NCBI GenBank assembly: GCA_964481135.1
Contig: CAYZSW010000006.1
Location: forward strand, 1-63,642
DNA from: an uncultured Candidatus Saccharibacteria bacterium
GTDB taxonomy: Bacteria; Patescibacteriota; UBA1384; JAMDBS01; DAOVQR01
Direction of reading: 5' to 3'
DNA: 63,642 bases
The stretch is not shown here. A report on this DNA, generated by a model with database tools, continues below.

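What the first reader, a model, noticed from the sequence alone, without database searches (positions are those of the whole stretch)
11857..12045. A complete tRNA-Thr(CGU) nested inside the D-arm of a second tRNA-Thr(CGU)-like gene, clamped by GC-rich complementary arms
On the minus strand, 12045->12023 reads GCCCACT-TA-GCTT-TAATGGTA-GA, and 11909->11857 reads GC-A-ATTCC-TTCGTAA-GGAAG-AGGTT-ATTGG-TTCAAAT-CCAAT-AGTGGGC-T-CCA. Joined, these make a 76-nt cloverleaf with a perfect 7-bp acceptor stem, a restored D stem (GCTT/GAGC), a canonical T loop and anticodon CGT. The 113 nt between the two pieces have three parts. The first is a 21-nt arm, CCTGCCCGCCAGTCGCTTAGC. The second is an intact 75-nt tRNA-Thr(CGU) (11927..12001). 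The third is a 17-nt arm, GGCGCTTGGCAGACGGG. The arms can pair (CTGCC/GGCAG, CCAG/TTGG, CGC/GCG), so the inner tRNA sits in the loop of a GC-rich hairpin planted in the outer D stem. The inner and outer genes share only about two thirds of their positions, so this is not a simple recent duplication. I see three readings. (a) It is an intron-like or split-tRNA arrangement. RNase P/Z release of the inner tRNA would leave two outer halves held together by the GC clamp, which recalls archaeal split tRNAs but is not something I know from bacteria. (b) A palindromic element carrying a replacement tRNA-Thr inserted into and killed the resident gene. T instead of the near-invariant A at outer position 14 argues for decay. 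(c) It is an assembly chimera. The arm sequence resembles the CCTGTCYGCC / GGCRGACRGG core of the GC islands at 33.2 and 56.9 kb and the junction of the tRNA-Asp repeats.
Basis: partly seen in the sequence, partly recalled or inferred. Interest (0 to 1): 0.9.

Follow-up and report, generated by a model that had tools for sequence, protein, structure and literature searches.

The report, continued
Rival explanations
1. Functional tRNA-in-tRNA. The 113-nt insert behaves like an intron or splitting element. RNase P and RNase Z release the inner tRNA. The two outer pieces, held together by the arms and the 7-bp acceptor stem, are then either ligated or work as a two-piece tRNA-Thr(CGU).
For: The outer halves are intact and join into a valid cloverleaf. 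Their differences from the L092 orthologue are structure-preserving or compensatory. The acceptor plus T-arm minihelix that RNase P needs is intact. The arms can pair. The whole 189-nt region folds better than shuffles, z -3.2.
Against: No bulge-helix-bulge geometry exists in any cleavage register; the central helix reaches at most 2 of 4 pairs. No intron model matches. The insert sits inside the 4-bp D stem, where an unspliced helix would clash with the tRNA core (established tRNA structure; inference). A second tRNA of the same anticodon makes the outer one redundant. In the two other occurrences of this element in tRNA-Thr genes (L092 relic, L113), the host gene lacks its 3' part and is dead. 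No bacterial tRNA splicing endonuclease is known (own knowledge). None of the papers returned by the searches run here describes such a system in bacteria.
Confidence: 0.05
2. Two separate accidents with no cassette mobility. First, a cargo-less GC-rich hairpin element, like the one in the L092 relic and islands C and D, landed in the D stem and killed the gene. Later, a foreign tRNA-Thr(CGU) gene was captured in the hairpin loop, for example during repair of a palindrome-induced break or by illegitimate recombination of transformed DNA at conserved tRNA blocks.
For: The L092 relic has the hairpin at the same site with only an 11-nt loop, CGACAAAG, the loop type shared with island C. Breakpoints in relics and hybrids coincide with the two most conserved tRNA-Thr blocks, GGTAGAGCA and TTCGTAA (L092, L113, L098). 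tRNAs enclosed by leader/trailer stems are enriched in this clade, 12/160 against 1.6 expected.
Against: L113 carries the same composite in an unrelated genome and context: homologous arms, the same TAGC leader and a tRNA-Thr with the same acceptor and T stems. So once formed, the composite travelled as a unit. This rival therefore concerns the origin of the cassette, not its present nature.
Confidence: 0.2
3. The outer tRNA-like fold is retained for a non-decoding role. The acceptor/T-arm minihelix formed by E1 and E2 would serve as an RNase P and 3'-processing signal that separates the DUF192 message from the downstream 99-aa/GT2 message.
For: The tRNA lies inside an apparent operon with no terminator. 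A tRNA-Thr occupies this intergenic position in 44 of 79 related loci. The acceptor and T stems of the outer gene are perfectly kept.
Against: The inner tRNA already provides RNase P and 3'-end processing sites at the same place. L012 has no tRNA between the two genes. There is no direct evidence.
Confidence: 0.06
4. Assembly chimera or mis-join.
For: tRNA genes share k-mers, and several short-read contigs of relatives break inside tRNA-Thr (L094, L095, L115).
Against: The identical 218-nt sequence spans both junctions in independent assemblies from six samples made with three pipelines. A homologous cassette and a collinear relic exist in other organisms.
Confidence: 0.01

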